Shown: positions 7,656-59,744 of the stretch, in pieces
Numbering within the stretch: position 1 is the stretch's first letter
How the letters are laid out: each line of letters opens with the position of its first letter
Assembly (NCBI GenBank): GCA_047601445.1
Contig: JASGJH010000001.1
Coordinates: forward strand, 8,416,001 to 8,480,000
Origin: Myxococcales bacterium
Lineage (GTDB): Bacteria > Myxococcota_A > Polyangia > Polyangiales > DASUME01
Reading direction: 5' to 3'
Length of the DNA: 64,000 nucleotides
The notes under the pieces: model-generated
The model's input: only the letters and a program-made list of their open reading frames with translations
What the model was told of the DNA's origin: nothing
The model's database searches: none
Program-made: the position numbers and the translations under genes

Positions 7656-8558
7656 ATGGTGATGCACCTCCTCACGGCGATCCTCCTCGCGGCCTCGGTT
7701 GCGGCACCAGCATGGGCCCAGGATGCGAGGGCGGCGCCCGCTGCTGCCAGTGCGGACGCGGAAGCCCAGGCATACAGAGCGCAGCTGGTCGAGGCCCGCG
7801 CAAAAATCGACCGCCAGTTGGCCGAGGCGCGAGCGGAGCGGAAGAGGGCGAGCTTGGTAGCGCCCGCCGTGGGCTTGGCCGGCAGTGTCGGTGCGCTCGG
7901 CGTCTTGAGTCTCGTGTTCCTCACGTATCCGGGGTACCCAGAACATGCGGGATCGATCCTGATCGCCTCGACGGTACCGGCGGTGACCCTGGTCGGCAGC
8001 GGCGTCTTCTTCAGGCTACGGAGGAAACATCACAGGGGAGCTGGTCGCGCGATCGCAGCACTCGAAACCCAGCGTACGGTACTCGATGCCCGCCTGAGAG
8101 ACACGAGTCGAGAAGGCCGATTGGCTGCGGATCGCGTAGAAGCTGCGGCTCGCGTGCGCCTGGCCGAGGTTGACGCTCGCCGGCTCGAGCTCCAGCGCGA
8201 GCAACACGGCTATTCCTACGCGGGGCCCATGGTCTTGGTGGCAACTGGCACGATGGCGGCCGCTACCTTCGCGCTCTGGTCGTTCACTGTCTGGCTGAGG
8301 GAGTATGCGTTCAGCGAGTACCCCGAAGAGTATTCGGATGACTCCAAGCGTTTGGTGCGAGGCATGGCGGCGGGTTCGCTCGCGGGGATCGCGTTGGCAG
8401 CGGGAGGTGGCCTGTGGTTTCGCTCGAGCCGTCGCGCCCGGGCGCGTCTTGCACCTGAACTCCAGAAGCTCGAAGTCGAGCGCAACGGGCTGCAGATGCA
8501 CATCGCACCTCAGCTTGGCCCCACGAGCTTGGGATTCATGCTTCAAGGCCGCTTTTGA
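7656..8558 (+). CDS. Secreted/membrane hypothetical protein with coiled coils, hydrophobic hairpins and a C-terminal LQGRF motif
   Basis: Signal peptide (AWA|Q), two internal coiled-coil plus hydrophobic-hairpin units, terminal Phe. Confidence 0.7.
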   Translation: MVMHLLTAILLAASVAAPAWAQDARAAPAAASADAEAQAYRAQLVEARAKIDRQLAEARAERKRASLVAPAVGLAGSVGALGVLSLVFLTYPGYPEHAGSILIASTVPAVTLVGSGVFFRLRRKHHRGAGRAIAALETQRTVLDARLRDTSREGRLAADRVEAAARVRLAEVDARRLELQREQHGYSYAGPMVLVATGTMAAATFALWSFTVWLREYAFSEYPEEYSDDSKRLVRGMAAGSLAGIALAAGGGLWFRSSRRARARLAPELQKLEVERNGLQMHIAPQLGPTSLGFMLQGRF

Positions 8559-8671
8559 CGGGCTGAGCAGGCCGCGCTCATGATTTCATCCCACAAACTT
8601 CAAGCCTGAGATGCTGGCCTCAACGACCGTGAATCGTACCCTTGCGCTGTCGCTTGACCTGGGGAGGATTC

Positions 8672-9313
8672 ATGGAGAGAGCCAGTGCAGTTCGCGCGCT
8701 TGCCGTGTCCTTTTGTACGCTGATCGCCTGTACGCACTCGGAGCGCCCAAGCCCGACTGCCACTTGCCTCGCTCCTTCGTCTGGACCCGACGCCTGCGAG
8801 GATCAGATTTGCCTCGAGGAGCAACAGACCCTGACCGTCGACAGCCACCAGGCTTCCGATGGCCAGTTCAACTGCCGCGGTTGCAAGGACCCAGACGTGC
8901 TCTCCAGAGATGACCGCCTCGAGAATGCCTTCGTCACGTTCAGCACGCCGGACCTCGAGGTCCACCTGACCTTCGACAATCGCGTGTCCCTCGACCTCAC
9001 GCTCGAGAACCTGCGCAAGTACGCCGGCGACGCGAGCGGCACCTACCACGTGCAGGGCGGGGGCATGGGCTTTGCGTTCGTTCCGTTCGAAGTCGCCTCC
9101 TACACCGGGGGACGCCTTCGGGTCCGCTTCGACGCCTCCCTCGGGACCTTCAGCTATGACGGCGAACGCACCCCCTACAGCTGCGACGTCGTGATCGGGG
9201 GCCAAACGGTCCCCTCCGTGTGCACCAAGATGACGTGCGGCTACCAGACCCAGGCGGGTGGTCACCCGGTCGAGTTGGCGGTGGACCTCGCGGGCGAGCT
9301 CGCCTTCTACTGA
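8672..9313 (+). CDS. Cys-containing lipoprotein of unknown function
   Basis: GGAGG RBS, lipobox LIAC, distant resemblance to 27850..28494. Confidence 0.7.
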   Translation: MERASAVRALAVSFCTLIACTHSERPSPTATCLAPSSGPDACEDQICLEEQQTLTVDSHQASDGQFNCRGCKDPDVLSRDDRLENAFVTFSTPDLEVHLTFDNRVSLDLTLENLRKYAGDASGTYHVQGGGMGFAFVPFEVASYTGGRLRVRFDASLGTFSYDGERTPYSCDVVIGGQTVPSVCTKMTCGYQTQAGGHPVELAVDLAGELAFY

Positions 9314-9404
9314 GGCACCCCGGACCACGTCGACGGCGGGCACCCTGAAAATTCGTGCGGCGCGTTTCATCAATGGGTCCCCTTCGGGTGACTCACCTAC
9401 CGCC

Positions 9405-9953
9405 ATGCGTATCCCCCAACGTTTCCTTTTGTCGCTCGTCGTCGCGCTGTGGTTCGCTGCCTGCGGTGACGACGGCGGCTACGACTCGCCCCAGACCTGC
9501 CAGCTCGAGTGCGAGCGCGCGGCGCAGTGCTCGCCCCGGACCGACCCGCGTGCCTGTCGCGACCAGTGTGCATACCCGTCCAGGCCGTCACCGCCACCCT
9601 TGAGCCCGCGCTACCTGGATGCCGTGCGCCGCTGCCTGGCCACGATCTCCTGCGATGTGGCGAGTCTGGGCGGTGCGAGCGACACCTGCGCCCGCGACGC
9701 CGCGCTCAGCCTCGAGCCGTCGAAGCCCGCGAGCGACCTGTGCCGGCGTGCTGTCCGCGCGGATGAGCTGTGCCGCGTGAACACGTTTTCCAGCAGCGCC
9801 TGCCTCGAGGAGGTCAAGATCTACGACGACGAGGTGCTGCGCCGAGCAGCGCGCTGTTACGACGGTGCGTGCGTGGATCAGTCGCGGTGTCTGGAGTACG
9901 TTTTCGGCTATCCGTACCCGTACGTCTATCCGTATCCGCGGGAGATCCGCTGA
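9405..9953 (+). CDS. Cys-rich lipoprotein
   Basis: Signal ending FAAC, repeated CxxxC helical motifs, Tyr-Pro-rich C-terminus. Confidence 0.7.
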   Translation: MRIPQRFLLSLVVALWFAACGDDGGYDSPQTCQLECERAAQCSPRTDPRACRDQCAYPSRPSPPPLSPRYLDAVRRCLATISCDVASLGGASDTCARDAALSLEPSKPASDLCRRAVRADELCRVNTFSSSACLEEVKIYDDEVLRRAARCYDGACVDQSRCLEYVFGYPYPYVYPYPREIR

Positions 9954-10010
9954 GCGGGCGTCTTCGGCGACCCCGGCCATCGTCGGGCTGCCCCGCGGCC
10001 GTAAGAAATT

Positions 10011-10048
10011 CTGAACCGGTTTGAACCGACCTGGACTCTAGGGACGGC
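10011..10048 (+). promoter_or_regulatory. ECF-type promoter, cassette-1 motif, copy 1
   Basis: CTGAACCG-N17-CTCTAGGG-ACG-GC-ATG. The motif starts 38 nt before ATG 10049. Confidence 0.75.
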
Positions 10049-12428
10049 ATGGGTTCGTGTCGGATTCGGTCGAAGCGGGCGCTGGCGAGCAGGACGGCGC
10101 TCGTCATGGCGCTCGGTCTCGCCGCCTGCGGGGAGGGCGAGGCGCCTTCTTCGGCGGCACCGGGCGCGCCGCCGGGGGCGCCCCACCAGGATTCGGACGA
10201 GATTGCCGGCGAAGTCACCGAAGACGCCGGACCTCCGAGCTTCGGTTGCGAGGCCAGACCCCCCGCGGGATTCATCACCCAGTGCTCGGGCTGCCATACG
10301 CTCGGGGGGACGAACCAGGGCGGAAAAATCCCAGACCTGCGGATGTTCGCCGGCACCGAGGCCGAGTTCGTGACCCAGGTGCGTCGCGGTGGCGGAGGGA
10401 TGCCGGCGTTTTCGGAAGCCAAGCTGAGCGACGCGGGACTGCACGAGGTCTACACCTTCCTCCGACAGGGCGACCCCGGGGCGCAGTCGGGTCAAGCGGG
10501 CGGCTCCGGCGGCGAGCAAAACTTCGGGCTAGGCAACGTCAGTCCGCTGTTCGGGGAGAATACGGCCTTGGCTGTGAGCTTCCTGCGCGACGACGGCGTG
10601 TTGATCACGCGAGGCGCGGGCCGCGTGCGTGGGCGTCACGAGCTCGAGGGGACGTACGGACCGTTTGGTCCGCTCTACTTCGAAGGACGCACCTTCGGCT
10701 TCGTGATCGAGGACTTCACGGTGCGCGGCGAGAATCGCATCGTGGTGAGCTATCTGCCGCTGGCGCGTCCGCAAGACAAGACCAACTTTCGCGCCTTCAA
10801 GATCTACGGCGATGGCAACGTCTTTCACGCCAACACGGGCATGGACTCGGATACGCCGCTGCCTTCGCTCGCGCAGGCAGGCAGCGACCCGGCGCAGGAA
10901 TACGCGACCCGCATCGCGGCCTTTGCCCGGGTGCAATCCCATGAGGTCAAAGGCAACGCGCGCACGGGGAAGCCCCTGCAGGCGGGCGAGCTGTTCGAGT
11001 TCGAGTTCGGTGTGTTCATCGAGCCCTCGGCCGTGCGCGCCAACAGTCGAACCGCCTATTACACGGATACCTTCCGCTACCGCGTGGGCCAGGGCGGTCT
11101 CACGATGGAGAACGCCGACACCAGCGGCCAGCTCGGGCCCACGATGGACGCGCAGCTCGGCGGTGCCACCACCGTCGCCTGGGCCTACGCCGAACCGGAG
11201 CTGTACTTCTCCCAACTGGCGTCGAACACTCAGCACGAGCACGTGCAGGCGTTCGTGGATGGCCGCAGGCTGTTTCACACGGACTTCGACACAGGGGCCC
11301 ACAGCGAAGCGGGCAATCCGGCGTTCGACGCCCAAGCCCACAAACTCGGACCGCTATTCGTGAGCCATGCGTGCGTGAACTGCCACGTGCGCAACGGTGG
11401 AGGCGAGACCCTGGTGGGCAGCTTGAGCGAGACCAGCACGATGGCGTTCAAGCTGTACGATGCGGGGGCGGAGCTCGGCAATCAGCTGCAGCTGCAGGAA
11501 GGATTGGCGCGCTCGGTCGCGCCGGAGCAGCGCGAGGTCTCGTTGTCCGACGGAACGCAAATGCTGTCACGTCCGACCTTCGAGGTGCAGGACAAAACCG
11601 GGCGGGAGCTCGCGTACTCGGCGCGTGTGGCGCGTCGCCTGGTGGGGCTCGGGCTGCTCGAAGCGATCGACGAGACCACCCTCCTTTCACGGGCCGATCC
11701 GCAAGACTGCGATGGCGATGGGATCTCGGGCAGGCCGCATCTGGTGGCCGACCCGGAGCGCGGCGTGCTGCGGGTGGGGCGCTTTGGTTGGCGCGCCGAA
11801 AAGGTGAGCGTCGAGCATCAGGTGGCCGACGCGTTGTCGGCAGACCTCGGCGTGTCCTCCCGCGTGCTGCCTGGCAGCGCGCAGGCAGCCGGAGCGGGCG
11901 GGGCCGCTGGCGCGCAGAACGTCGAGCTCGACGATGATGGCCTGCGCCGCCTCACCACGTACATGCGCCTGCTCGGCGTGCCACCGCAGCGCGCGGCGGA
12001 CAGCCCCACCGTGATGCGCGGCGAAACGGTGTTTCACGAGGTGGGTTGTGCGAACTGTCACGTGTCGGCGCTGACCACCGGCAGCTCCCATCCTTTCATC
12101 GAACTGCGTGGGCAGTCGATCCGGCCGTACACGGATTTGCTGCTGCATGATCTGGGGCCCGATCTCAGCCGATGCCAGCGGCCTGCCGGCCCGCGAAGGC
12201 GTGGAGCAGCCGGCCAGTGCGAGCGAGTGGCGCACCGCACCGCTGTGGGGCGTGGGGCTCTCGCAGACCGTGCAGGGCTACGTGGCGCTCCTGCACGACG
12301 GCCGAGCCCACAGCGTGCTCGAAGCGATTCTGTGGCACGGGGGCGAGGCTCAAGCGGCGCGCGAGCGGGTGGTCGCGCTGTCGAAGGCCGACCGTGAGGC
12401 TCTCGTGCAGTTCGTGGAATCGCTATGA
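10049..12428 (+). CDS. Cytochrome c plus di-heme oxidoreductase (DUF1111/DHOR-like) lipoprotein; apparent frameshift at ~12167
   Basis: Lipobox LAAC. Three CxxCH motifs (CSGCH, CVNCH, CANCH), GLGLLEAI, DPQDCDGDGISGR, GRFGW, YTDLLLHDLG. The +1 frame carries EWRTAPLWG and LLHDGRA...EAILWHGGEA. Removing A12167 joins the two frames. Confidence 0.85.
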
Positions 12429-13132
12429 GTTCTGTGGCTTACACTCGCGCGGACGTTCTTGCTACGCGTCGGCAGTCGGCTCGAGTAAGGTGGCCCGCCG
12501 TGGCTCCACCCCTGACGAGTCGAGCGCCCTCGGACTTTGGCCTGCGGGCCGATCCGTCCGCTGCGTCGGCCGGGATGTCCGGCCGCGAGCAAGACGACAA
12601 GGCGCGTGTGCGGCAGGTCGAGGCCGTGGAGTCTTCCGAGGGCTTGGATACGGCCGCGGTGTTCCGACGCTACGCGCCCTATGTAGCCAAGGTTGGACTG
12701 CGCATCCTGGGGCGGCGCGATGAGCTCGATGACTTCGTGCAAGATGTCTTCGTCACGGTCCATCGCAAGCTCGACTCGCTGCGCGATGTGGCCGCGTTGA
12801 AGCACTGGTTGGCCACCCTGGCGGTTCATGAGGCGACGCGCAGACTGCGGCGTCGCAAGTTGCGTGCGCTGTTGGGCATGGGCTCGGTGCCGGACTACGC
12901 GGATGCCGCAGACGCCTCGGCTTCACCCGAGCAGCGCGCGCTGTTGGCGCAGGTCTTCTTGGCGCTCGAGGCGCTGCCAGCAGACGAGCACGTGGCTTGG
13001 TCCCTGCGCTACATCGAGGGCGAGACCATGGAGCGCGTGGCGGAGCTGTGCGCCTGCTCGCTCTCCACCGCGAAGCGCCGTGTGGCGGGGGCCGAAAAGG
13101 CGCTCGAAAAGCGGGGACTAAGCCATGTCTGA
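12425..13132 (+). CDS. ECF sigma-70 factor (cassette 1)
   Basis: Region 2 DDFVQDVF...WL and a region 4 helix-turn-helix (TMERVAELCACSLSTAKRRV). ATGA overlap with the upstream gene; the true start may lie downstream. Confidence 0.9.
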   Translation: MSSVAYTRADVLATRRQSARVRWPAVAPPLTSRAPSDFGLRADPSAASAGMSGREQDDKARVRQVEAVESSEGLDTAAVFRRYAPYVAKVGLRILGRRDELDDFVQDVFVTVHRKLDSLRDVAALKHWLATLAVHEATRRLRRRKLRALLGMGSVPDYADAADASASPEQRALLAQVFLALEALPADEHVAWSLRYIEGETMERVAELCACSLSTAKRRVAGAEKALEKRGLSHV

Positions 13133-14273
13133 GCGGCTTGCCGAGCGGCTATCCCAGGCGCGAGAGCACCTCGATGCGGACTTCGGATCCCGTGAGGTCG
13201 AGCGCGGACTCGCGGGTCTGCAGCAGCGGATTCGCCGGCGTCGTCGTGTGACGCAGGCGACAGGTGCGCTGACGGTGCTGACATTGCTGGTGGGCTCCTG
13301 GTTGCTCTTGCCGCGCGCGTCCGAGGTCGCTCGCCAATCCGAGAGCGGGCCGGCGGTGGCTGGCTCGCGTGCGCTGCGCACGGCAGACGGATTGGTTGCG
13401 CGCCTGCTTTCCCCGCAGACCGTGCTGCAGCTGGAACACGAGCGACAGGACGAGGTGAGCTTGCAGCTGGAGCACGGCAGCGGTCACTTCGAGGTCACGC
13501 GTAACCCGCGGCGGCGCTATCGCGTGCGCGCGGGACAAGTCGACGTGGAAGTACTGGGCACCGCCTTTGAGGTCACCAGACAGGCAGCAGGCGCCAGAGT
13601 TCGTGTGGAGCACGGCCTGGTGCGCGTGCGCTGGCCCAGCGGCGAGCAGCTCTTGCACGCTGGAGAGAGCGGCGAGTTTCCTCCCGTCGTGTCCGCGCCC
13701 GTGGCCGCTGCCAGCGAGCCCGTGCAGGAGGTCGAAGCGAGTGTGTCCGCCCGCGAGCCAATCCAAGACGCGGACCTGCTCGTCGATCCGTCGCTGCGCT
13801 CTACTGTGCTCGCCCGGGACCGCTCCCGTGAGCGCTGGCGTGCACTGGAGCGCGCGGGCAAGCATCGCGAAGCATTCGGGTCCCTGGGCGAACGGCCCGT
13901 CGAAGACTTGGCCGGCCTGCTGCTCGCTGCCGATGCCGCGCGCCTGTCCGGACATCCCCAGCAGGCGGCGACGTACCTGCAACGGCTGATGCGTCGCTAC
14001 CCGCGCACCGCTCCGGCACGCCTGGCCGCCTTCACCCTGGGGCGCCTAGCGCTGCGCGAGCTCTCGGATCCTGCGCTCGCCGCCCGCAGCTTCGCGCGGG
14101 CCTATGCGCTCGATCCGAAGGGCCCCTTGGCCGAAGACGCGCTGGCACGGGAGGCCGAGGCCTACCACCGCGCGGGCGACTTGGGACGGGCCCGAAAGGC
14201 TGCTACGCGCTACATCGAGCAGTTCCCAGATGGCGTTCGGCGCGACGACATTTCCCGCTATCTCGCGCCATGA
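13125..14273 (+). CDS. FecR-domain anti-sigma with C-terminal TPR (cassette 1)
   Basis: One TM helix, FecR motifs (LEHGSGHFEV, VEVLGTAFEV, VRVEHGLVRV), and a TPR tail (ADAARLSG...RYP...AAFTLGR...EDALAR). Confidence 0.85.
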   Translation: MSERLAERLSQAREHLDADFGSREVERGLAGLQQRIRRRRRVTQATGALTVLTLLVGSWLLLPRASEVARQSESGPAVAGSRALRTADGLVARLLSPQTVLQLEHERQDEVSLQLEHGSGHFEVTRNPRRRYRVRAGQVDVEVLGTAFEVTRQAAGARVRVEHGLVRVRWPSGEQLLHAGESGEFPPVVSAPVAAASEPVQEVEASVSAREPIQDADLLVDPSLRSTVLARDRSRERWRALERAGKHREAFGSLGERPVEDLAGLLLAADAARLSGHPQQAATYLQRLMRRYPRTAPARLAAFTLGRLALRELSDPALAARSFARAYALDPKGPLAEDALAREAEAYHRAGDLGRARKAATRYIEQFPDGVRRDDISRYLAP

Positions 14274-14301
14274 GCCGCAGCGCGCCAGTGCGCTCCCAGC
14301 A

Positions 14302-15321
14302 GTGGCTCGCGGTCTGGCCCGCCTGCTCCGGAGCCAGACGTGGGGGCTCTTGAGTTTGCTTTGGCTGTGGGTAGCCCATGCTCAAGCGCAGGCCGACACG
14401 GGATCTCACAGGCGCGTCACGATCACCTTCACGAGCTGTGAGGTCCCATCGCCGTCCGAGGTGCGCGCGCTGCTGGCGATCGAGCTGCGCGAGGACCTGC
14501 TGCCCGACGGCACCGGCGAGCTCGAAACGGGCGGGGCCGCCCGCGAGCAACGAGCTGACTACCACGTGCAGGTGCAGTGCAGCGGACACGAGGCTCAGGT
14601 GACCGTGCGCGAGACCGCTGCCACGCGAACTATCGCTCTCGCCAAGGAGCCCGTGGAACTGCGCGCACGCCTGCTCGCGCTGGCCATCGCCGAGCAAGTC
14701 AGTCCGGCTTCGGAGCCGGTGCCCACCAAGGCACAGACAGCCACCACGGAGCCCGCCATCGTGCAGCCCGATCCGCAAGCTGTTGCCCCGCTTCCACGCT
14801 CGACGCCGCGCGCGTCCGCCGCCGAACACTTCGCCTGGGCCGCCCTGCAGCTGCAGGCGAGTCCCTTGCTCGGTCCGGGTGTCACGCTCGGGCTCTCACA
14901 GCGGATTTGGCGCCTCCTTTCCTGGTCGAGCAGTCTCTCCTACAGCTTCGCACGCAGCTCCCTCGACGACGGTGAACTGCGCGTGCAACAGACCTCCGTG
15001 AACACAGGACCTGCGCTGCACCTGGCCTTCAGCGACCTCGTGCTGGAGCTGGGCGCTGGCATGCGGGCCGGCTGGCTCGGACTGCGCGGTGAGCCCGACG
15101 ACGCGGCCCGCGTGCGCGGCAAACGCGTGGACACGTGGCTCGCAGGGCCGTCCCTGTTCGGCGCGCTGTTCGTAAACGCGGGCAAGCGCGGCTTCGGGAT
15201 GCTGGCGCTCGAGCTCGCCTATACGCTGCGCAAGGTACACGCCGATGTTCAAGGAGGCGGAGGACGCACGCTCTCTGCACTATGGGGTGCGGCTTCCCTG
15301 GGGGGAGGTTTCGCGTGGTGA
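14302..15321 (+). CDS. Secreted protein with a small N-terminal alpha/beta domain and a C-terminal amphipathic beta region (putative OM beta-barrel), cassette 1
   Basis: GTG start, signal peptide ending AHAQA, Pro linker, alternating beta-strands, terminal aromatic residue (GGGFAW). Confidence 0.65.
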   Translation: MARGLARLLRSQTWGLLSLLWLWVAHAQAQADTGSHRRVTITFTSCEVPSPSEVRALLAIELREDLLPDGTGELETGGAAREQRADYHVQVQCSGHEAQVTVRETAATRTIALAKEPVELRARLLALAIAEQVSPASEPVPTKAQTATTEPAIVQPDPQAVAPLPRSTPRASAAEHFAWAALQLQASPLLGPGVTLGLSQRIWRLLSWSSSLSYSFARSSLDDGELRVQQTSVNTGPALHLAFSDLVLELGAGMRAGWLGLRGEPDDAARVRGKRVDTWLAGPSLFGALFVNAGKRGFGMLALELAYTLRKVHADVQGGGGRTLSALWGAASLGGGFAW

Positions 15322-16256
15322 GGGCGCTCGCGTGCCGGTCGTCGGTCCCGTGGGCTGCGCTCGCGTTGGTGCTCTCCGGCTGCGCGCAGCTCGAGGCCGT
15401 GGTGCTCGTGGTGCGCGACGCGAATGTCGATGAGCCGGCGATCGACGCAGCGACGGAGCCGTCGGATGCAGGCGACGCTGGGTCCCCCGACGCGGGCCGA
15501 GACGCAGGGCCCGACACACGCGGCGTGTGCAGGAGCGGAGGCAGCAAGGACGGCTTCTACGAGACCTTCGACGGACCTGCACTGGACCCGACGCGCTGGC
15601 TCGTCGCCCAGGGCCGCCTCGAGTTCGCCGGCCGAATGGCCCAGGGCGGCTTCCTGGCCGAGAACGTCCGCGTGGAAGGCGGTTCACTCGTGCTCACCGT
15701 GCACGGAGACCTGCACGCTGGCGGACGACGCACGGGGGCTGCCATCGTGACCCGCGATCTGTTCGCGTCGGCGACGTATCAGGCCCAGGGGCACCTGGTC
15801 GGTCCGCCTGGTGTGGAGTTCGCGCTGGCGTCGCTGCGCGATGACGATCGTGAAGGTGGCATCGACATCGCGACTCCGGGCCTGGAGGCTGACCGAGCGA
15901 GCTACGCGCGAGTCCACATGCGCAGCCGCGACGCAGCGGGCACGAGCGAGACACAGTTCGCCTTGGCCGAGACCCTCGACGATGGCGCGAGTCACATCCT
16001 GCGCTTCGATTGGTACACCACGGCCCAGAGCGCGGTGCGCTTCTGGGTCGACGACATGCCGCGCTCTCAACTGGATGAGCATCTGCCGATGCGAGCTGGC
16101 CGCATGTGGCTCCTTGCCTGGGTGCCGGGCGAGGCAGCGGCCGACTTCGACACGGTCGAGATTCGCATCGAGAATGCCTTCGTCACCCCGTTCGGCAATA
16201 GTGGAGATTTATGCCAGGACGGCGAGCTCTCCGGGCCTGGACTGGCACCTCCGTAG
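15318..16256 (+). CDS. GH16-like lipoprotein lacking the catalytic glutamates
   Basis: GGAGG RBS with GTGA overlap, lipobox LSGC, GH16 scaffold (ETFDGPALDPTRW, ENVRVEGGSLVL, HILRFDW, VRFWVDD). It has GGIDIATPG where EIDIxE is expected. Confidence 0.75.
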   Translation: MRALACRSSVPWAALALVLSGCAQLEAVVLVVRDANVDEPAIDAATEPSDAGDAGSPDAGRDAGPDTRGVCRSGGSKDGFYETFDGPALDPTRWLVAQGRLEFAGRMAQGGFLAENVRVEGGSLVLTVHGDLHAGGRRTGAAIVTRDLFASATYQAQGHLVGPPGVEFALASLRDDDREGGIDIATPGLEADRASYARVHMRSRDAAGTSETQFALAETLDDGASHILRFDWYTTAQSAVRFWVDDMPRSQLDEHLPMRAGRMWLLAWVPGEAAADFDTVEIRIENAFVTPFGNSGDLCQDGELSGPGLAPP

Positions 16257-16270
16257 GAACGCCACTTTTC

Positions 16271-16308
16271 CTGAACCGATCCGCACCTGCCCTGCCTCCT
16301 AGGCTCGC
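16271..16308 (+). promoter_or_regulatory. ECF-type promoter, cassette-1 motif, copy 2
   Basis: CTGAACCG-N17-CTCCTAGG-CTC-GC-ATG, starting 38 nt before ATG 16309. Confidence 0.75.
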
Positions 16309-18105
16309 ATGCAGGCACCATCGCCAGTCACTGCCACGGCCCGTTCGCTTTTGGCGAGCGTGCTCGGGCTCTGTCTTGGGGCGTGCTCCGGATCCGTCGA
16401 GGGACCGCTGGGGCCGGGCGCTGACTTCAGCGCCTCCACGAGCGCGGCCCTGCTGGGGCGCACTGGCCCGCGCCGCCTGACCAACACGGAGTACGACAAC
16501 ACGGTGCGCGATCTCCTGGGCACCGAGCTCAACGTGGCCGCCAACTTCGTGGCCGAGGAGGCTGGTGGCTTCGACAACGTGGCTCAGGCACTCGGCATGA
16601 CCCCGAGCCAGTACGAGTCTTACTTCAACGCCGCCGAGACCCTATCGCACGAGCTGTTCGCGGACACTGCGCGCCGTGCGCAGGTCGTCTCGTGCAGCCC
16701 GACCGGGAGCGATGGCGGACCGTGCCTCGAGCAGTGGCTGTCCGAGTTCGGGGGCCGAGTCTTTCGACGCCCTCTGGCGGCCGAAGAGAAAGCGAGCCTC
16801 AAGCAGGCCTTCGGGCGCGCGCTCGCGCTGGGCGAGGCGCCGATGGCAAGTGTGGAGCATGTGCTCGTTGCCATGCTCTCGTCGCCGCAGTTCCTCTATC
16901 GCATCGAGACCGGTGCCGACGTCCAAGCAGTCGTGTCCGCCCGCGAACGAAGCACGAACGCGGGCACGTCAGCCGGCGAGCAAGGTGCCGCGAACGACGG
17001 ACGGGTGTTGCTGGACAGCTACGCGCTGGCCTCCCGTCTCTCGTACTTTCTCTGGAGCACCATGCCCGACGCGGCCCTGTTTGCGAAGGCCGAGGACGGC
17101 TCGCTCATGGATCCCGTGGTGCTTCGCGCAGAGCTCGCGCGCATGCTCGACGATCCGCGTGCCGGCTCCTTGCTGGACAACTTCGCCGCGCAGTGGCTGA
17201 GCTGGCGCGAGCTCGCCCAGCACAAGGTGCTCGCGGCCCGCTACCCCGAGTTCGATGACGCCCTGCGAGACTCGATGCTGAAGGAAGCGCGAGCCTACGT
17301 GTCGGAATTTCTATTCGAGGACCGGCCCCTCAAGGACTTCCTGCGAGCCCAGCTGAACTTCGTGGATCGACGACTCAGCCAACTCTACCAACTCGATCTG
17401 GCCCTGCCGTCGTCCGAGGAACTCGTGCGCGTCGAAGCAGGCGGGTCCGCCTGTGAGCCTGGCGTCGACAACCCTAACGGCGACCGCCGTGGCTACCTCG
17501 GCCTCGCGGCGTTTCTCACGGTGTCCTCGTTCGCCCAGCGCACCTCGCCCACGCTGCGCGCCAAGTGGGTGCTCGAGGAGCTCATGTGCAGCGTCGTCCC
17601 CCCGCCGCCACCCAACGTCACAGCTCAACTCGAGGACACCGCGAACGCTGCCGCCAGCATCGAGAACGTGCGCGAGCGCCTGGAGCTACACCGCAGCGAT
17701 CCGGGTTGCGCGAGCTGTCACGCGCGGCTCGATCCGATCGGGCTCGGTCTGGAGTCGTTCGACGCCATCGGTCGGAGCCGCACGCACTACGAGAACGGGG
17801 ATTCGATCGACACCCTCGGTGAGCTGCCGGATGGGCGCACCTTCGATGGACCGGTGGAGCTCTCCGCCATCCTGGCCGACGATCCACGCTTCGAGCCCTG
17901 CGTGGCGCGCAAGCTCTTGACCTACGCCCTCGGCCGCACCCTCGGCAGCGAGCCCGACCTCGTGGCGCACACCGTGGCCTCCTACAAGCCGCAGGGCACC
18001 CTGCGCGCGATGATCGAGAGCATCGTGCTTGGCGACGCCTTCCGGTACCAGGCCCAGTCGACGCAGGCGGAGCCGCCCGCGCGCAACGCAGGGAGTGCAC
18101 CATGA
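16309..18105 (+). CDS. DUF1587/1595/1592/1588/1585-domain lipoprotein with a heme-binding motif
   Basis: RRLTNTEYDNTVRDLLG, LSSPQFLYR, LASRLSYFLWSTMPD, TSPTLRAKW, CASCH...DPIGLGLESFDAIG, LLTYALGR. Confidence 0.9.
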   Translation: MQAPSPVTATARSLLASVLGLCLGACSGSVEGPLGPGADFSASTSAALLGRTGPRRLTNTEYDNTVRDLLGTELNVAANFVAEEAGGFDNVAQALGMTPSQYESYFNAAETLSHELFADTARRAQVVSCSPTGSDGGPCLEQWLSEFGGRVFRRPLAAEEKASLKQAFGRALALGEAPMASVEHVLVAMLSSPQFLYRIETGADVQAVVSARERSTNAGTSAGEQGAANDGRVLLDSYALASRLSYFLWSTMPDAALFAKAEDGSLMDPVVLRAELARMLDDPRAGSLLDNFAAQWLSWRELAQHKVLAARYPEFDDALRDSMLKEARAYVSEFLFEDRPLKDFLRAQLNFVDRRLSQLYQLDLALPSSEELVRVEAGGSACEPGVDNPNGDRRGYLGLAAFLTVSSFAQRTSPTLRAKWVLEELMCSVVPPPPPNVTAQLEDTANAAASIENVRERLELHRSDPGCASCHARLDPIGLGLESFDAIGRSRTHYENGDSIDTLGELPDGRTFDGPVELSAILADDPRFEPCVARKLLTYALGRTLGSEPDLVAHTVASYKPQGTLRAMIESIVLGDAFRYQAQSTQAEPPARNAGSAP

Positions 18106-19574
18106 CCAGGCCCCAGCACAGCTTCTCGCGCCGCACGCTCCTGCGTGGCGTCGGTGTGTGTCTCGCACTGCCTTATCTCGAAAGCTTGGCCCCGCGCTCA
18201 CTTGCTTCGGCGCAAGCCGCGCCCGCCAAGCGCTTCATCGCCAGCTACTTCCCGAATGGCGCCGCCGCCGACTACTGGCCCGTGAAAGGCAGTGGCGCGG
18301 GCTGGACACTCTCGCCGCTGCTGGCGCCGCTCGCCGCCCACAAACGCAGGCTCGTCGTCTTTTCCAACCTGGAGAACTACAGTCCGATGCAGGACAACCA
18401 GGGCGTGGAGCCGAGCCATGCGCGCCTGTGCGGGGCGTTTCTTACCTGCGTCGACTCCGACGCCGTGCGCGAGAAGCTCAAGGTGGAGATGGCGAATGGC
18501 ATCTCCATGGACCAGGTGATCGCCGCGCAGATGAAGACCACGCTGCCTTCGCTGGAGCTCGGTCTTTCCACCCTCAATAGCTACGAAGACGGTCGCCATC
18601 CGTCGCTCTCCCGCAGCATCGCGTGGGCGAGCACGACTCAGCCGCTCTACAAGGAGGTCAATCCCCAGGCCGTGTTCGATCGTCTGGTGGCCGCCGGGGC
18701 GGTGGACGCGAGCGGGGCGGCGGACCCCCAAGTGGCCGCGCAGGCAGCCAGGCGCAAGGCGCTCAAGCTGTCGGCCCTGGACTTCGTGCTCGAGAGCGCC
18801 CGCGGTCTGAGCGGCAAGCTCGGGCGCGAAGACAAGCCCAAGCTCGAGGAGTTCTTGAGCTCGGTGCGAAGCCTGGAAGAGCGCGTGCGCGGACTCTCGG
18901 ACGCCATCGCGCAGCAGAGCGCGCCCATGTGTGAGGTGATGGATCGCCCGCCGCGAGCCTACGCCGTCAACGTCAGCGAGGGCTACGATCGCGGCACCCA
19001 CGCCGCCGTGATGAACGACCTCATCGTGATGGCACTGCGCTGCGACGTGACCCGCGTGATTACGCACATGCTCGACGACGCCCGCAGCGACTTCGTGTAC
19101 GACCACCTGATCAACCGCAAGTTCAGCGCCGAGGGCTCTACCGAAGGCTCCGGCAAGGTGGGTGGCTTTCACGGACTGCAGCACGCCGGTGACAGCAACG
19201 ACGGCTACGCGACCATCAACTGGTGGTTCAGCCAGCAGATGGCCGAGCTATGCAGCAAGCTGGAGGCAGTGCAGGAGGGGGAGGGGAGCCTGCTCGATCA
19301 CACCCTCATCCTGTACGGCGGCGCCATGCATGGCAGCGATCACGACGGCCGACCCCTGCCCATGGCCCTCATCGGCGGCAACGGCGCGGGCATCCGCACC
19401 GATCAGCACGTGGACTTCAGCGCCAGCGCGGCCGGGCGCCCCCTGCGGGATCTCTATTTCACCATCTTGAACGGCTACTTCGGCCTCGATGTACCGAGCT
19501 TCGGCGAGCATGTGGCGGGGATTCCCAACAAGCTGATCAGCGAAATTCTCGAGCTGACCCTGCCTTTTTTCTGA
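18102..19574 (+). CDS. DUF1552-domain protein, Tat-exported
   Basis: Tat signal SRRTLLRG, LALPYLES, YFPNG, SMDQVIA, SLELG, EVNPQAVFDRL. It is the usual partner of DUF1592 proteins. Confidence 0.9.
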   Translation: MTRPQHSFSRRTLLRGVGVCLALPYLESLAPRSLASAQAAPAKRFIASYFPNGAAADYWPVKGSGAGWTLSPLLAPLAAHKRRLVVFSNLENYSPMQDNQGVEPSHARLCGAFLTCVDSDAVREKLKVEMANGISMDQVIAAQMKTTLPSLELGLSTLNSYEDGRHPSLSRSIAWASTTQPLYKEVNPQAVFDRLVAAGAVDASGAADPQVAAQAARRKALKLSALDFVLESARGLSGKLGREDKPKLEEFLSSVRSLEERVRGLSDAIAQQSAPMCEVMDRPPRAYAVNVSEGYDRGTHAAVMNDLIVMALRCDVTRVITHMLDDARSDFVYDHLINRKFSAEGSTEGSGKVGGFHGLQHAGDSNDGYATINWWFSQQMAELCSKLEAVQEGEGSLLDHTLILYGGAMHGSDHDGRPLPMALIGGNGAGIRTDQHVDFSASAAGRPLRDLYFTILNGYFGLDVPSFGEHVAGIPNKLISEILELTLPFF

Positions 19575-19608
19575 ACCGCTTTTGGCCTTCCTGCCCTCCT
19601 AGGAGGGC
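19571..19608 (+). promoter_or_regulatory. ECF-type promoter, cassette-1 motif, copy 3
   Basis: CTGAACCG-N17-CTCCTAGG-AGG-GC-ATG, starting 38 nt before ATG 19609. Confidence 0.75.
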
Positions 19609-20586
19609 ATGCGCACCCTCTTCCTCGCCTGCTGCCTCTCTCTCGTCGCCTGCACGGATGCCGACTCTCCTGGGGAATCGCTCGATGCCGGGTCTCCCCC
19701 CACCAACGACGGTGGCAAGGAGGAGGACGACGACACGGCTCACGACGCTGCTCCCGAGGACACCTCAGACGATCCGGGCGAACAAGACGCCGGTCGCGAC
19801 GCGGGCAAGCCGGACGGCAAATCCGACGCGGGCGCGGGCCAAGACCTGCCCGGTTGGAAGCTCGTGTGGAACGACGAGTTCGACGGTCCTGCCGGCACCG
19901 TGCCCGACAAGACCCGCTGGGTCCCCGAGAACAAAGGGGACGGCTTCGGCAACAACCAATTGGAGTTCGACACCAATCGCGCCGAAAACGCCGCGCTCGA
20001 CGGCAAGGGGCAGTTGATCATCACCGCCCGCAAGGAAGAGTACATGGGCCGCCACTACACCTCGGCGCGCCTCAAGACCCAGGGCAAGTTCGAGCACAGC
20101 TACGGCCGCTACGAAGCGCGCATGCAGATCCCCTTCGGCCAGGGCATGTGGCCCGCCTTCTGGATGCTCGGCACGAACATCGGAAGTGCGGGTTGGCCCG
20201 ACTGCGGGGAGATCGACATCATGGAGAACATCGGCCGCGAGCCCACGCTGGTGCACGGCACGCTGCACGGCCCTGGCTACTCGGGCGGCAACGGCATCGG
20301 CGCCTCCTCCTCACTGCCCAAGGACGCCCACTTCAGCGACGCCTTCCACGTGTACGCCATCGAGTGGGAGAAGGAGGTCGTGCGCTGGTATGTCGACGGC
20401 GAGCTGTATCAGACCCGCACTCCCAAGGATCTGCCGGGTCAAAGTAAGTGGGTCTACGATCACTCGTTCTTCATCCTGCTGAACTTGGCCGTCGGCGGGC
20501 AGTGGCCGGGCAATCCCGACAACACCACGACGTTCCCGCAACAGCTCAAGGTGGACTACCTGCGGGTCTACGATCGCATGCCCTGA
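19609..20586 (+). CDS. GH16 beta-1,3-glucanase (laminarinase-like) lipoprotein
   Basis: Lipobox LVAC, WNDEFDG, YTSARL, WPAFWMLG, intact catalytic GEIDIME, LLNLAVGG. Confidence 0.93.
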   Translation: MRTLFLACCLSLVACTDADSPGESLDAGSPPTNDGGKEEDDDTAHDAAPEDTSDDPGEQDAGRDAGKPDGKSDAGAGQDLPGWKLVWNDEFDGPAGTVPDKTRWVPENKGDGFGNNQLEFDTNRAENAALDGKGQLIITARKEEYMGRHYTSARLKTQGKFEHSYGRYEARMQIPFGQGMWPAFWMLGTNIGSAGWPDCGEIDIMENIGREPTLVHGTLHGPGYSGGNGIGASSSLPKDAHFSDAFHVYAIEWEKEVVRWYVDGELYQTRTPKDLPGQSKWVYDHSFFILLNLAVGGQWPGNPDNTTTFPQQLKVDYLRVYDRMP

Positions 20587-20591
20587 ACGCT

Positions 20592-20609
20592 CCTACCCGC
20601 TTGGGTAGG
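20592..20609 (+). terminator. Hairpin after the GH16 gene (possible terminator)
   Basis: CCTACCC-GCTT-GGGTAGG, with no clear U-tract. Confidence 0.35.
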
Positions 20610-20696
20610 GCTGGCGTTGGGGAGGGTGTTCGGAGTGCGAAAGCATCGGCGCACGCCCCCAACATCGCGTACATCAGGGCCCACCAGGCCCAACGC

Positions 20697-21458
20697 ATGC
20701 GTCGTATCTTCCTCGCGCTCTTCACCGCCATTCTGTTCCTTTCAAGCTTTCCACTCGGCGCAGAGGCCGAGGACACCCAAGACGACGAGGCCCGTGCCCT
20801 GTTTGAAGCAGGCCTGGTCGCCTATGACAGTCAGCGCTTCGAGAGCGCGCTGATGTACTTTCGTCGCTCCCTCGCCTTGAGTGGCCGCGCCAAGCTGCAT
20901 TACAACGTGGGCCTTGCTCTCGAGCGCCTCGGGCGCGCTGAAGAAGCGATCGATAGCTATTCGCTCTACCTGCAGGCCATCCCCGACGCTGCAAATCGCC
21001 TCGAGGTCGAGGGGCGCATTGGATCGCTCGAGAAATGGGTCCCAGAGTCGAAGCCGGGCGCCGTCCCCGAGGCCGTCCAAAGCCCGCCGACTGAAGTGGT
21101 CCAACCGCCGGCTTCCGAGCAAGCGCCGACCGCGGCTACGCAGGGTCCAACGCGCAGACGCCGTACGGGCCTTGCGCTGGTGGCGAGCGGCGGAGCACTC
21201 CTCGCAGCCGGTGGCGTGTTCGTCGGCCTGGCACTGCGCGCGCAACACGAAGTCGAAGCTGCGCCGCAGGGGGGCTACTGGCAGCACGTCGCATCGGACA
21301 ACGACCGTGCCCTCACCTTTTCCGTGGTGGGCTTTTCCCTGCTCGGCACCGGTGTCGTCAGCGCCGTGCTGGGTGGCGGACTCTGGTTTCGCAATCGTCA
21401 CATCACGGTCGACGTCGCCCTCGCACCGCGCGCGTTTTGCCTGCAAGGACGTTTCTGA
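20697..21458 (+). CDS. Secreted TPR protein with a hydrophobic hairpin and a C-terminal LQGRF motif
   Basis: Signal peptide, TPR (ARALFEAG...LHYNVGLALERLG...), terminal Phe. Confidence 0.8.
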   Translation: MRRIFLALFTAILFLSSFPLGAEAEDTQDDEARALFEAGLVAYDSQRFESALMYFRRSLALSGRAKLHYNVGLALERLGRAEEAIDSYSLYLQAIPDAANRLEVEGRIGSLEKWVPESKPGAVPEAVQSPPTEVVQPPASEQAPTAATQGPTRRRRTGLALVASGGALLAAGGVFVGLALRAQHEVEAAPQGGYWQHVASDNDRALTFSVVGFSLLGTGVVSAVLGGGLWFRNRHITVDVALAPRAFCLQGRF

Positions 21459-23167
21459 TGAGCACGCGGTTCGAGCTCGCGCGACCCCACGCGCTGTTTC
21501 TGGGTGTCACCGCACTGGCGCTGAGCGCCTGCACGCCCACCATTCCCGAGGGGCGCTTCGCTTGCGATGACCACCACGCATGTCCGCCCCGCTTCGAGTG
21601 TCGCGAGGACAACCTGTGCTACTCGCGCGACTTCAAGCGCGACGATCACGGCGGCGACGGCATGGATGGCGGCACCGACGCTTCCAACCTGCCGACCGAC
21701 GCGGGCGATCAGCCCCAATCTTCCGGTGACGGCGGTGATGCCATGCCCGACGCGGCCGTGGACCTGGGAACGGCCCCCCTGCGCGTGGTGCACGCCGCGA
21801 TCGCCGACGACGTGAATAACCTGATGCTCCAGGTGGATGAGCTCCCCGCCTTTCCACTCGCCTACGGCGACGTGAGCGCCTTCGTCCCTGGCGAACCACG
21901 CAGGGTGCGCATTCGCGTCAGCGACGCAGGCCAGGTCGTGAGGCTGGATACGCAGTTGGAGTTGACGGCCACCTCCGCCATGGTCCTGCTGAGCGCGCCC
22001 GCGGGGCTGAGCATGCGCGTGATCCCGGTGCCGGCTCCGCCGGTCGATGGCTCCCGTATCGCTGCCGTCAACGCCATGTCGGTTGGCCTGTCCGTGGTGT
22101 TCGATCAGCAAGACGCGATGCCCGACCCGAAGAGTCTGAACGCTCTCGAAGCGGAGCCCACGCTGGATCTCGACGGCGTTAGCAAGCGCTTGCTCGTTGG
22201 CTTCGATCAGGGCGGCTTTATCGCAGGCTTCTCCGGATTGTCGCTGGACTCGGGATCCATCTTGGTGCTGCTCGGTGACTCCCGGCGTCCGCTCATCGAC
22301 CCGCGCGGTCCACGCGCTGTGGTCCTGCACGGCCGAGACGCGCTCTCGCTCTTGTCCGATCCGCTGGTGACCCTGGTCCACTTGTCCACGGCGCCCGTTC
22401 GAGCGATCGAAAACGAGGCCGCGGCCGCCGTCTACCCGATCACGCTGTGCGTCACGGATCGCTTCCAGCGTCTGAACACCGGAGACTTTCAGTTCAGTGA
22501 GATCACGCCACAGATCCCCGTGTCGATCGAAAACGGGGATCGCTTCTACGTGCTGCCAGTGGCCGAGTCGGATTGCAGTGCTCGGCCCGTCGCCGAGTTT
22601 GCCGTGGCGAGTGCCAACCTTCAGAAGGGACGCAGATACCTCGTTCCATTCACCGGCGACAAGGACCGCATGGTCATCCCCGACGGCGGCCTCCCGCAGG
22701 CGGAGGCCGGGCCCGTGCCCAACCTGGTGGCATTCCCCGAAGCAGATCGCGAAGGGATCTCGGAGAACTCACGCCTGGTGACGTTTGGACATGCGGCCAT
22801 GCTGACCACGGAGCCAGACACGCTGCTTCGCTTCACGCCCCCGGCACCGAACGCCGCCGTGATGTTGGATCGCGCCGACACCGCAGGCCAAGAGCAGGCG
22901 GGCAGCGGACAGGATGCGGGCAGCGACGAGCAGCAGTCGATCATGATGGAGTACATTTCTGCGAAGGACCTGCCGTCAGGCGCTCAGCTGGCCAGGCTCC
23001 ATTTCGACGTGACCACCCACGGCAGCCGCTCGGTGTTCATGATCGCAACGGACCCGCTCGTCTGGCACGCGAACACCGTCCCGGAGCTGATGCTGACCGT
23101 GATCGAGACCTTCGACGACCAACCCTGGACGTCCAACGTCGTTCAAGGAACCCTGGAACCGAACTAG
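21458..23167 (+). CDS. Lipoprotein with an N-terminal Cys motif and DUF4397-like beta repeats
   Basis: Lipobox LSAC, GRFAC...C...C...C, repeat starts LRVVHAA, IAAVNAM, VTLVHLS and VTFGHAA. TGATG overlap with the TPR gene. Confidence 0.65.
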   Translation: MSTRFELARPHALFLGVTALALSACTPTIPEGRFACDDHHACPPRFECREDNLCYSRDFKRDDHGGDGMDGGTDASNLPTDAGDQPQSSGDGGDAMPDAAVDLGTAPLRVVHAAIADDVNNLMLQVDELPAFPLAYGDVSAFVPGEPRRVRIRVSDAGQVVRLDTQLELTATSAMVLLSAPAGLSMRVIPVPAPPVDGSRIAAVNAMSVGLSVVFDQQDAMPDPKSLNALEAEPTLDLDGVSKRLLVGFDQGGFIAGFSGLSLDSGSILVLLGDSRRPLIDPRGPRAVVLHGRDALSLLSDPLVTLVHLSTAPVRAIENEAAAAVYPITLCVTDRFQRLNTGDFQFSEITPQIPVSIENGDRFYVLPVAESDCSARPVAEFAVASANLQKGRRYLVPFTGDKDRMVIPDGGLPQAEAGPVPNLVAFPEADREGISENSRLVTFGHAAMLTTEPDTLLRFTPPAPNAAVMLDRADTAGQEQAGSGQDAGSDEQQSIMMEYISAKDLPSGAQLARLHFDVTTHGSRSVFMIATDPLVWHANTVPELMLTVIETFDDQPWTSNVVQGTLEPN

Positions 23168-28494: not shown

Positions 28495-28495
28495 G

Positions 28496-58824: not shown

Positions 58825-58861
58825 GTGAGCCGTCTCGGCCGGCAGCGAACACTGCCTCACC
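58825..58861 (+). promoter_or_regulatory. ECF-type promoter, cassette-2 motif, copy 1
   Basis: GTGAGCCG-N17-CACTGCCT, starting 37 nt before ATG 58862. Confidence 0.65.
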
Positions 58862-59711: not shown

Positions 59712-59744
59712 GTGAGCCGCGTGGAGGGGGTTCGGACACTATGG
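59712..59744 (+). promoter_or_regulatory. ECF-type promoter, cassette-2 motif, copy 2 (possibly autoregulatory)
   Basis: GTGAGCCG-N17-CACTATGG at the 5' end of the sigma gene. Confidence 0.65.

What the first reader, a model, noticed from the sequence alone, without database searches (positions are those of the whole stretch)
10011..19611. Exactly spaced promoter motif defines a probably leaderless regulon for cassette 1
Seen: CTGAACCG-N17-CTC(C/T) occurs at 10011, 16271 and 19571. Each starts exactly 38 nt before an ATG (10049, 16309, 19609), each is preceded by a T/A-rich tract, and each ends in GCATG. Established: ECF promoters have tightly spaced -35 (often AAC-containing) and -10 elements. 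Inference: the ATG falls ~7 nt after the -10 element, at about +1, so the transcripts would be leaderless. The first promoter would also transcribe the sigma operon through the ATGA overlap, giving positive autoregulation.
Basis: partly seen in the sequence, partly recalled or inferred. Interest (0 to 1): 0.8.

Follow-up and report, generated by a model that had tools for sequence, protein, structure and literature searches.

The report
Leaderless ECF promoters with paralog code
Three identically spaced DNA motifs sit just before three lipoprotein-like genes in a likely myxobacterium and are likely promoters read by the neighbouring sigma factor, predicted to start RNAs within two bases of the start codon; close variants precede most related sigma genes examined, likely giving a readable code for which sigma switches on which genes.

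Summary
The motif is real: three exact copies, each 38 nt before an ATG, none in 100 shuffles. It is most likely an ECF promoter, TGAACCG-N16-NCTC(T/C), kept before the orthologous genes in four same-genus genomes despite rearrangement. It is one variant of a family-wide promoter: TGA(G/A)CC(G/A) precedes 90 of 130 related sigma genes (2 of 55 other ECFs). In-frame start codons pile up at the predicted +1 (35 in frame, 5 out of frame, 93 promoters), so leaderless or 1-2-nt-leader transcripts are likely. The window's ATGs lie one base beyond the modal position, and no start site was measured. The -12/-11 bases match between a sigma's own promoter and its local targets (22 of 28). Ala versus Ser at the RpoE-Gly168 position tracks G versus A/C at -33. 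Both point to the 12425 sigma and to insulated paralogous regulons. The closest described groups, ECF267 and ECF210, are published as having no conserved promoter; membership was untestable. Verdict: a new variant of a known kind. Leaderless initiation itself is common in this genome.

The parts
10012..10039 (+). Promoter P1: -35 TGAACCG (10012-10018), 16-nt spacer, -13..-9 ACTCT (10035-10039); A/T tract upstream; predicted start 10047-10049
   Evidence: ranks 6 of 19,005,082 positions under a matrix built only from 7 sites of other genomes
10049..12428 (+). Cytochrome c + DHOR (di-haem oxidoreductase family) lipoprotein gene, broken by a 1-nt frame shift near 12166 (real or assembly error)
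   Evidence: Pfam PF13442, PF06537 on both pieces; orthologs open over 780-793 aa; lipobox-like LAAC read by eye
12425..13132 (+). ECF sigma factor, ATGA-coupled to the DHOR stop; Ser at the RpoE-Gly168 position
   Evidence: Sigma70_r2 and r4_2, TIGR02937 over cut-off, alignment to RpoE 1or7, N-terminal extension in orthologs
13125..14273 (+). Putative anti-sigma factor: one hydrophobic segment near residue 45, FecR domain, TPR repeats
14302..15321 (+). Secreted protein predicted as a small alpha/beta domain, a Pro-rich linker and an OmpA/OmpW-like small beta-barrel; conserved +2 gene of the family
   Evidence: model pLDDT 89.6, pTM 0.60; best fold matches OmpA, Ail, OmpX, NspA, E 4e-6 to 4e-5; homolog in 33 of 41 parsed +2 genes; start codon inferred
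15318..16256 (+). GH16-like lipoprotein without the catalytic glutamates (GIDIAT against EIDIME); candidate glucan binder
   Evidence: Atlas feature hits to GH16 clusters at 0.90-0.92; BLAST E 2e-8 to the 19609 protein and motif comparison by eye
16272..16299 (+). Promoter P2: TGAACCG-N16-CCTCC
   Evidence: rank 1 in the other-genome matrix scan; kept in G003 and G006
16309..18105 (+). DUF1587/1595/1592/1588/1585 lipoprotein-like gene
   Evidence: signal peptide read by eye
18102..19574 (+). DUF1552 (HXXSHH) gene with a twin-arginine-like N-terminus, ATGA-coupled to the previous gene
19572..19599 (+). Promoter P3: TGAACCG-N16-CCTCC; its TGA is the DUF1552 stop
   Evidence: rank 19 in the other-genome matrix scan; kept before the unlinked GH16 ortholog of G006
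19609..20586 (+). GH16 beta-glucanase-like lipoprotein with intact EIDIME motif
   Evidence: PF00722 1.5e-27
58826..58853 (+). Cassette-2 promoter of the other code, TGAGCCG-N16-ACACT, ATG at 58862 (offset 36); in-window contrast
59713..59740 (+). Cassette-2 sigma's own promoter, TGAGCCG-N16-ACACT; that sigma has Ala at the RpoE-Gly168 position

Best explanation
The three motifs are likely promoters read by the ECF sigma factor encoded at 12425, each predicted to start its RNA at or up to two bases before the ATG, so the three first genes would be translated without a Shine-Dalgarno leader. In the published ECF register TGAACCG is -36..-30, the spacer is 16 nt and NCTC(T/C) is -13..-9, with the conserved C as the flipped -10 base. 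P1 would transcribe DHOR, sigma, anti-sigma, barrel and GH16-like genes (positive feedback). P2 and P3 would add transcripts for the DUF1592/DUF1552 pair and the GH16 glucanase. The -35 is shared across a large myxobacterial family with FecR+TPR anti-sigma factors. Specificity among paralogs likely comes from the -12/-11 bases and from Ser instead of Ala at the RpoE-Gly168 position, which goes with A or C instead of G at -33. Shown: motif, spacing, conservation, enrichment, covariation, gene content. Inferred: promoter activity, cognate sigma, start site. Weakly inferred (about 0.35): the inducing signal is an outside beta-glucan relayed by the non-catalytic GH16-like lipoprotein and the small barrel to the anti-sigma, without a TonB-dependent receptor.
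For: 3 window matches, 0 in 100 shuffles. Same motif before DHOR in G001, G002, G006 (start at offset 36, 37, 36), before the sigma itself in G001 where the gene order differs (37), before DUF1592 in G003 and G006, and before the unlinked GH16 of G006 (36). A matrix from 7 other-genome sites ranks the window sites 6, 1 and 19 of 19,005,082. TGARCCR upstream of 90 of 130 family sigmas, 2 of 55 other ECFs, shuffles mean 6.6, maximum 14. In-frame ATG/GTG at offsets 35-37: 35 against 5 out of frame in 93 promoters, in columns not used by the matrix; background 4.7% per codon. Of 31 further sites in family loci, 13 start at 35-37, 1 at 38-45, 17 at 46 or more; SD motif in 0 of 13 and 9 of 15 examined, lipobox in 12 of 13. 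-12/-11 identical in 22 of 28 local pairs, reached by none of 5000 re-pairings. Ala: G at -33 in 81 of 82; Ser: A 5, C 8, G 4 of 17. S164 aligns with RpoE G168, which PMC7776599 Table S1 assigns to -33. Of 7 family sigmas in this genome only two have Ser there, and the other one's promoter has -10 GTACA.
Against: No transcript or in vitro data. The window's ATGs are at +2, outside the two likely start positions (-1, +1) named in PMC7776599, so a 1-2-nt leader is as likely as none. DUF1592 is leadered in G003 and G006. G003 has a stop 12 codons into the sigma's coupled frame, and my gene model preferred a start at 12575. P3 carries AGGAGG 2 nt before its ATG. One promoter under a Ser sigma has G at -33 (G006 DUF1592) and 4 of 17 Ser sigmas keep G, so Ser permits rather than demands A. 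Loci are related and not independent; the spacer control in the pairing test was weakly positive (p 0.017). 40 of 130 family sigmas lack the strict -35 directly upstream. Outside the genus the strict pattern is largely chance (43 places against 22 control matches by my count; no family sigma in the 26 new loci). A pyrimidine-purine step is only slightly enriched at offsets 35-36.
Confidence: 0.8

Rival explanations
1. They are ECF promoters, but are read by another ECF of this genome or by several family paralogs alike, so there is no private regulon of the 12425 sigma.
For: The -35 is shared across the family. The genome has 7 family sigmas and 53 matches to the sigma query. A second Ser-type paralog uses the same TGAACCG.
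Against: The NCTCY -10 is found with the orthologs of this sigma in the genomes that have one; local -12/-11 match in 22 of 28 pairs; the other paralogs' own -10 elements are GTACA, GCCCT, ACACT and ACACT, and two have no assigned promoter.
Confidence: 0.1
2. The promoters are real but the genes are translated from ordinary leadered or read-through mRNA using the purine-rich bases before the ATG as a ribosome-binding site; the fixed distance reflects copying of one promoter.
For: AGGAGG before 19609 and AGGGA before 10049; no terminator-like site before P2 or P3, so read-through from P1 is possible; all three end in GCATG.
Against: Those purines lie at -8..-2 of the predicted start site and only 2 nt from the ATG at P3; P2 has no SD motif; the three spacers differ; the family shows two classes of target, without SD at offsets 35-37 and with SD at 46 or more.
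Confidence: 0.07
3. The motif is an operator for a transcription factor, or a by-product of TGA stop codons in GC-rich DNA.
For: P3's TGA is a stop codon, as is the G003 DUF1592 site's; 179 of 4512 predicted TGA stops in the genome are followed by the rest of the heptamer.
Against: Only 2 of 90 family sigma promoters sit on the stop of a coding ORF; the motif is bipartite, non-palindromic and locked to the start codon; its variable bases covary with sigma residues assigned to those bases.
Confidence: 0.03

Closest known systems
ECF267 (Casas-Pastor et al. 2021, PMC7826278; main-text passages and supplement part 28 read)
   Same: Myxobacterial ECF with a FecR-like anti-sigma fused to TPR repeats at +1 and no TonB-dependent receptor.
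   Different: [quoted passage not shown] Here a kinase motif lies near only 5 of 51 family loci, the -35 is strongly conserved, and a small-barrel +2 gene is conserved.
ECF210 (same supplement, passage read)
   Same: Group from Sorangium, Sandaracinus and Chondromyces; one family member here is named Sandaracinus amylolyticus by its source (P0345).
   Different: No anti-sigma or context is described for it, and its promoter is given as not conserved; overlap with this family could not be tested.
Local autoregulatory ECF regulons and the ECF DNA-recognition code (Todor et al. 2020, PMC7776599; parts 1-2 of 7 of the main text, passages, SI Tables S1-S2 read)
   Same: 16-bp spacer, small linked regulon, patchy presence in the genus, Gly168 read-out of -33, Lys56 read-out of -11.
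   Different: Leaderless transcripts are 0.2-5.2% of predicted ECF promoters in the 11 clades of Table S2, none deltaproteobacterial. Here 35 of 93 sigma promoters and 13 of 31 other sites have a start at offsets 35-37. The Ala/Ser rule at -33 was not in what I read.
FecI/FecR/FecA cell-surface signalling (general knowledge, recalled)
   Same: ECF sigma plus single-pass FecR-domain anti-sigma plus an outer-membrane barrel gene.
   Different: The barrel is a small OmpA/OmpW-like one, not a TonB-dependent receptor; the nearest PF00593 match is about 290 kb away; the anti-sigma has TPR repeats.
ECF17 (SigL) and ECF33 (EcfQ) promoters (PMC7826278 supplement passages)
   Same: TGAACC -35 element; ECF33 also has a -10 that varies between subgroups.
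   Different: Different -10 (CGT, or AC), different anti-sigma types and other phyla.

Membership tests
ECF (group 4) sigma promoter | Bipartite -35/-10 with 16-18-bp spacer | tested here: met
   16-nt spacer in all 10 clade sites; conserved C at offset 26 in the family
ECF (group 4) sigma promoter | Lies upstream of the sigma's own gene or operon | tested here: met
   P1 heads the sigma operon; directly before the sigma in G001; 90 of 130 family sigmas
ECF (group 4) sigma promoter | Bases covary with the known DNA-reading residues | tested here: met
   -33 with the Gly168 position; -11 with the Lys56, Ala60 and Thr81 positions and -13 with the Asn84 position among the top columns; register; related sequences inflate the scores
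ECF (group 4) sigma promoter | Sigma-dependent initiation at the predicted site | not testable with these tools
   needs 5'-end mapping or in vitro transcription
Leaderless mRNA (5 nt or fewer before the start codon, as used in PMC12754779) | Start codon within 5 nt of the start site | tested here: inconclusive
   predicted 0-2 nt from promoter geometry and the family peak; not measured
Leaderless mRNA (5 nt or fewer before the start codon, as used in PMC12754779) | No usable Shine-Dalgarno sequence in the transcript | tested here: met
   purine runs at P1 and P3 fall upstream of the predicted start site; 0 of 13 family targets of this class have an SD motif
ECF267 | FecR-like anti-sigma fused to TPR at +1 | tested here: met
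   120 of 138 family members have such a neighbour
ECF267 | No TonB-dependent receptor in the context | tested here: met
   18 PF00593 matches in the genome, none in the window
ECF267 | 1-3 protein kinases in the gene neighbourhood | tested here: not met
   no Ser/Thr kinase family among 48 window ORFs; kinase motif near 5 of 51 family loci (crude motif search)
ECF267 | Occurs in Sorangium and Chondromyces | tested here: inconclusive
ECF267 | Scores to the group HMM | not testable with these tools
   group models not available
ECF210 | Scores to the group HMM | not testable with these tools
   group models not available; only a taxon overlap (P0345)
FecI/FecR/FecA cell-surface signalling | Adjacent TonB-dependent transducer | tested here: not met
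   the adjacent barrel is OmpA/OmpW-like

The most novel reading that the evidence does not exclude
A large myxobacterial ECF family (2070 proteins at E 1e-30 among 8000 candidates scored) forms a TonB-independent surface-signalling system: a small OmpA-like barrel with a periplasmic domain and an exchangeable lipoprotein sensor signal through a FecR+TPR anti-sigma. Paralogs are kept apart by a three-base promoter code (-33, -12, -11) that can be read from a few sigma residues, and about 40% of its promoters are leaderless. This cassette would be its beta-glucan-sensing member.
Probability: 0.35. Interest if true: 0.75.

Novelty: new variant of a known kind. Interest (0 to 1): 0.55.

Why it matters
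Myxobacteria carry dozens of ECF sigma factors whose targets are unknown, and the two closest described groups are listed as having no conserved promoter. A fixed -35 with a cassette-specific -10 lets each paralog's regulon and its start codons be read from sequence. That assigns unannotated lipoproteins and the DUF1592/DUF1552 pair to a signal, here probably beta-glucan. It adds a testable rule to the ECF recognition code (Ala or Ser at the Gly168 position against G or A/C at -33) and offers a natural set of possibly orthogonal switches. A cultured species, Sandaracinus amylolyticus, encodes a family member, so the predictions can be tested. The general principles (autoregulated local ECF regulons, leaderless mRNA) are known, which caps the interest.

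Tried and rejected
Sequencing runs: none was listed for 9950-19900, so neither the start sites nor the DHOR frame shift could be checked against reads. Earlier findings of the scan: nothing returned by place, words or sequence. Sigma-70 promoter and terminator scan of 8000-24000: 2 and 8 sites, near shuffle levels, none at the three motifs. A first search for GAAC plus a fixed ATG distance near paralogs missed them because they use TGAGCC. A genome-wide spacer test with a loose -10 showed no clear excess at 16 over 13-15 nt. The strict pattern across 151 genomes of the order is mostly chance outside the genus. My first reading that A at -33 arose three times (tree) was cut to two clades, because L081 was reassigned to C when -33 was left free. 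Sigma start at 12575, preferred by my gene model, was rejected in favour of 12425. Two scripts stopped on errors; their tasks were redone. Paper searches; none listed a paper on this promoter or on start sites in these organisms, and DUF1552 with DUF1592 gave 0 papers. TGAGCC has 0 occurrences in the held part of the PMC7826278 supplement, which is cut. Datasets S1 and S2 of PMC7776599 were too large to read and may hold these promoters; sequence logos in figures and the ECF web resource could not be seen.
Full report
Observation. The pattern CTGAACCG-N17-CTCY has 3 matches in the window, at 10011, 16271 and 19571, and none in 100 shuffles. ATGs follow at 10049, 16309 and 19609. The whole genome (9,502,601 bases, one contig) has 5 strict matches, of which only these 3 have the ATG at that distance. 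The closest named relatives of the sigma are labelled Polyangiales, so the organism is probably a myxobacterium of that order. Below, offsets count from the T of TGAACCG as 0; the window's ATGs are at offset 37.

The cassette. Pfam gives: a cytochrome c + DHOR gene from 10049, in two frames because of a 1-nt shift near 12166 (orthologs are open over 780-793 aa); an ECF sigma at 12425; a FecR+TPR protein at 13125; two unannotated ORFs; a DUF1587/1595/1592/1588/1585 gene at 16309; DUF1552 at 18102; and GH16 at 19609. The ORF at 14302 folds (pLDDT 89.6) as a small N-terminal domain, a linker and a barrel whose best matches are OmpA, Ail, OmpX and NspA. A homolog is the +2 gene in 33 of 41 loci I could parse, out of 63 with enough downstream sequence. 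The ORF at 15318 resembles GH16 but lacks the catalytic glutamates, read by eye. The three genes behind the motifs begin with lipoprotein-like signal peptides that need exactly these ATGs (by eye). No TonB-dependent receptor lies in the window.

Conservation. Four of 9 same-genus genomes have a sigma 57-67% identical. In G001 the gene order differs, and the motif stands before the sigma (start at offset 37) and before DHOR (36). In G006 it stands before DHOR (36), before DUF1592, and before a GH16 ortholog on another contig (36). In G002 it is TGGACCA-N16-GCTCT before DHOR (37); in G003 it is before DUF1592. A matrix built only from these 7 other-genome sites ranks the window's sites 6, 1 and 19 among 19,005,082 positions. 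With all 10 sites in the matrix the window's three score 28-34 and the next site 21, which is partly circular but suggests no further strong target in the genome. Against a uniform picture, DUF1592 has a long leader with an SD-like motif in G003 and G006.

Autoregulation. The DHOR stop overlaps an in-frame (A/G)TG of the sigma in 4 of 4 genomes with this order; the frame is open in 3, and G003 has a stop at codon 12. Many database orthologs begin MS..AY or VS..AY, or keep part of the extension. My own gene model preferred 12575. P1 therefore most likely transcribes the sigma.

A family-wide promoter. I gathered loci from 61 genomes (150 of 1149 matches were listed; 30 came as loci and 80 more regions were fetched), 80 metagenome loci and the own genome. 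Of 196 distinct sigma hits, 138 score 85 bits or more with the ortholog profile and 120 of these have a FecR-TPR neighbour. TGARCCR lies 110-300 nt upstream of the conserved core in 90 of the 130 with a full upstream region, against 2 of 55 other ECFs and a shuffle mean of 6.6 (maximum 14 in 200). Most have G at offset 3, a C at offset 26, and variable bases at 23-25 and 27. Cassette 2 of this window carries TGAGCCG-N16-ACACT twice, at 58826 and 59713. These loci are relatives and are not independent.

Register and start site. Table S1 of PMC7776599 numbers ECF promoters -36..-30 and -13..-7 and assigns -33 to Gly168 and -11 to Lys56 of RpoE. The alignment to RpoE makes residue S164 (numbered from the Met at 12575) equal to Gly168 and T61 equal to Lys56. 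In the family, offset 3 covaries most with S164, and offset 25 with E86, K65 and T61. That sets offset 0 = -36, offset 26 = -10 and offset 36 = +1. Independently, among the 93 promoters passing the score (of 100 candidates), in-frame ATG/GTG codons peak at offsets 35, 36 and 37 (11, 18, 6), with 5 out of frame; these columns were not in the matrix, and the background is 4.7% per codon. Among 31 further sites in the same loci, 13 start at 35-37, 1 at 38-45 and 17 at 46 or more. SD motifs occur in 0 of the 13 and in 9 of 15 examined from the long class; 12 of the 13 have a lipobox. The paper names -1 and +1 as likely start sites. The window's ATGs are at +2, on a C-A step, so the leader is predicted to be 0-2 nt. 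This is not unusual for the organism: TAnnnT ends 6 nt before 150 of 7028 candidate in-frame ATGs and 7 nt before 124, against 15 and 23 of 6684 out-of-frame ones. A passage of PMC12754779 also proposes a leaderless mRNA in myxobacteria. Table S2 of PMC7776599 gives 0.2-5.2% leaderless ECF promoters in 11 other clades. No run was available to measure a start site.

Which sigma. In 28 pairs of a sigma's own promoter and a nearby target site (25 after dropping 2 sites that were a sigma's own, 1 with no sigma on its locus and 3 whose sigma had no assigned promoter, plus 3 from this genome), -12 and -11 are identical in 22; none of 5000 re-pairings reached that, while the spacer control was weakly positive, p 0.017. 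With -33 left free, 100 of 131 loci pass the threshold: Ala sigmas have G in 81 of 82, Ser sigmas have A 5, C 8, G 4; 31 fall below the threshold (11 Ser, 17 Ala, 3 Pro), and 5 of 55 other ECFs pass it. The four operon-type orthologs are Ser with A, though one G006 promoter has G. On the tree the Ser lineages fall in several separate clades (the trait column was not removed). This genome has 7 family sigmas; only the 12425 one and one other have Ser, and the other's promoter ends GTACA. The 12425 sigma is thus the best candidate.

Rivals. Stop-codon by-product: only 2 of 90 family promoters sit on a coding stop. Leadered translation: AGGAGG at P3 is 2 nt from the ATG and upstream of the predicted start, but could serve read-through RNA, since no terminator-like site precedes P2 or P3. 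Shared reading by paralogs remains possible; two other paralogs in this genome do share one code. The strict pattern alone is not diagnostic outside the genus.

Comparison with what is known. It works like a local, autoregulated ECF regulon as described in PMC7776599. The sigma and anti-sigma match the description of ECF267 in the PMC7826278 supplement except for the kinases and the statement that promoters are not conserved; ECF210 overlaps in taxon. Group membership could not be tested. Ten paper searches and a search of the held supplement did not show this consensus; the two largest datasets of PMC7776599 could not be read and may contain it. The FecI/FecR/FecA comparison is recalled.

Verdict. 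Observation confirmed, interpretation supported and widened. Promoters: about 0.95; read by the 12425 sigma: about 0.85; leader of 2 nt or less: about 0.8; beta-glucan signal through the barrel: about 0.35. New variant of a known kind; interest 0.55.

Noticed in passing
window 10049-12428: The DHOR gene has a 1-nt frame shift near 12166; orthologs are intact. Real break or assembly error is undecided.
   Followed up: partly
L022, L024, L025, L030, L052, L153, L154, L172, L173, L186, L193, L202 and others: Many family sigmas have a second, divergent copy of the promoter back to back, at about 13, 23, 35, 45 and 56 bp, which looks helically phased; its -10 mostly matches the local code.
   Followed up: partly
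family sigma loci: 32 of 93 sigma genes have their first in-frame start at offsets 38-44, a leader of 2-8 nt, about three times the background; target genes almost never do (1 of 31).
   Followed up: no
window 10022-10028: P1 contains a second TGAACCG 10 nt downstream of the first, inside the spacer, without a matching -10.
   Followed up: no
window 58826-63599: Cassette 2 (sigma 59741, FecR+TPR, barrel-like gene) is flanked by two similar-looking lipoprotein-like genes, 58862 and about 62772; its two promoters use TGAGCCG-N16-ACACT, the same code as the paralog at G000:C1:5745657.
   Followed up: partly
G000, several loci: Homologs of the +2 barrel protein also lie next to lower-scoring ECF sigmas, for example near G000:C1:1145669 and 2702231, suggesting a second ECF family that uses the same barrel.
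   Followed up: no
window 51299-53886: Adjacent YcaO and TfuA genes, as in thioamide-installing peptide clusters (recalled); no precursor looked for.
   Followed up: no
window 25471-33231: Two molybdopterin oxidoreductase genes on opposite strands and a 4Fe-4S/DmsC gene.
   Followed up: no
window 55840-58094 (-): A third ECF sigma with a C-terminal extension, coupled to an alpha/beta hydrolase gene.
   Followed up: no
G000 genome-wide: A sharp TAnnnT peak 6-10 nt before in-frame ATGs indicates several hundred leaderless or very short-leader housekeeping-sigma genes.
   Followed up: partly
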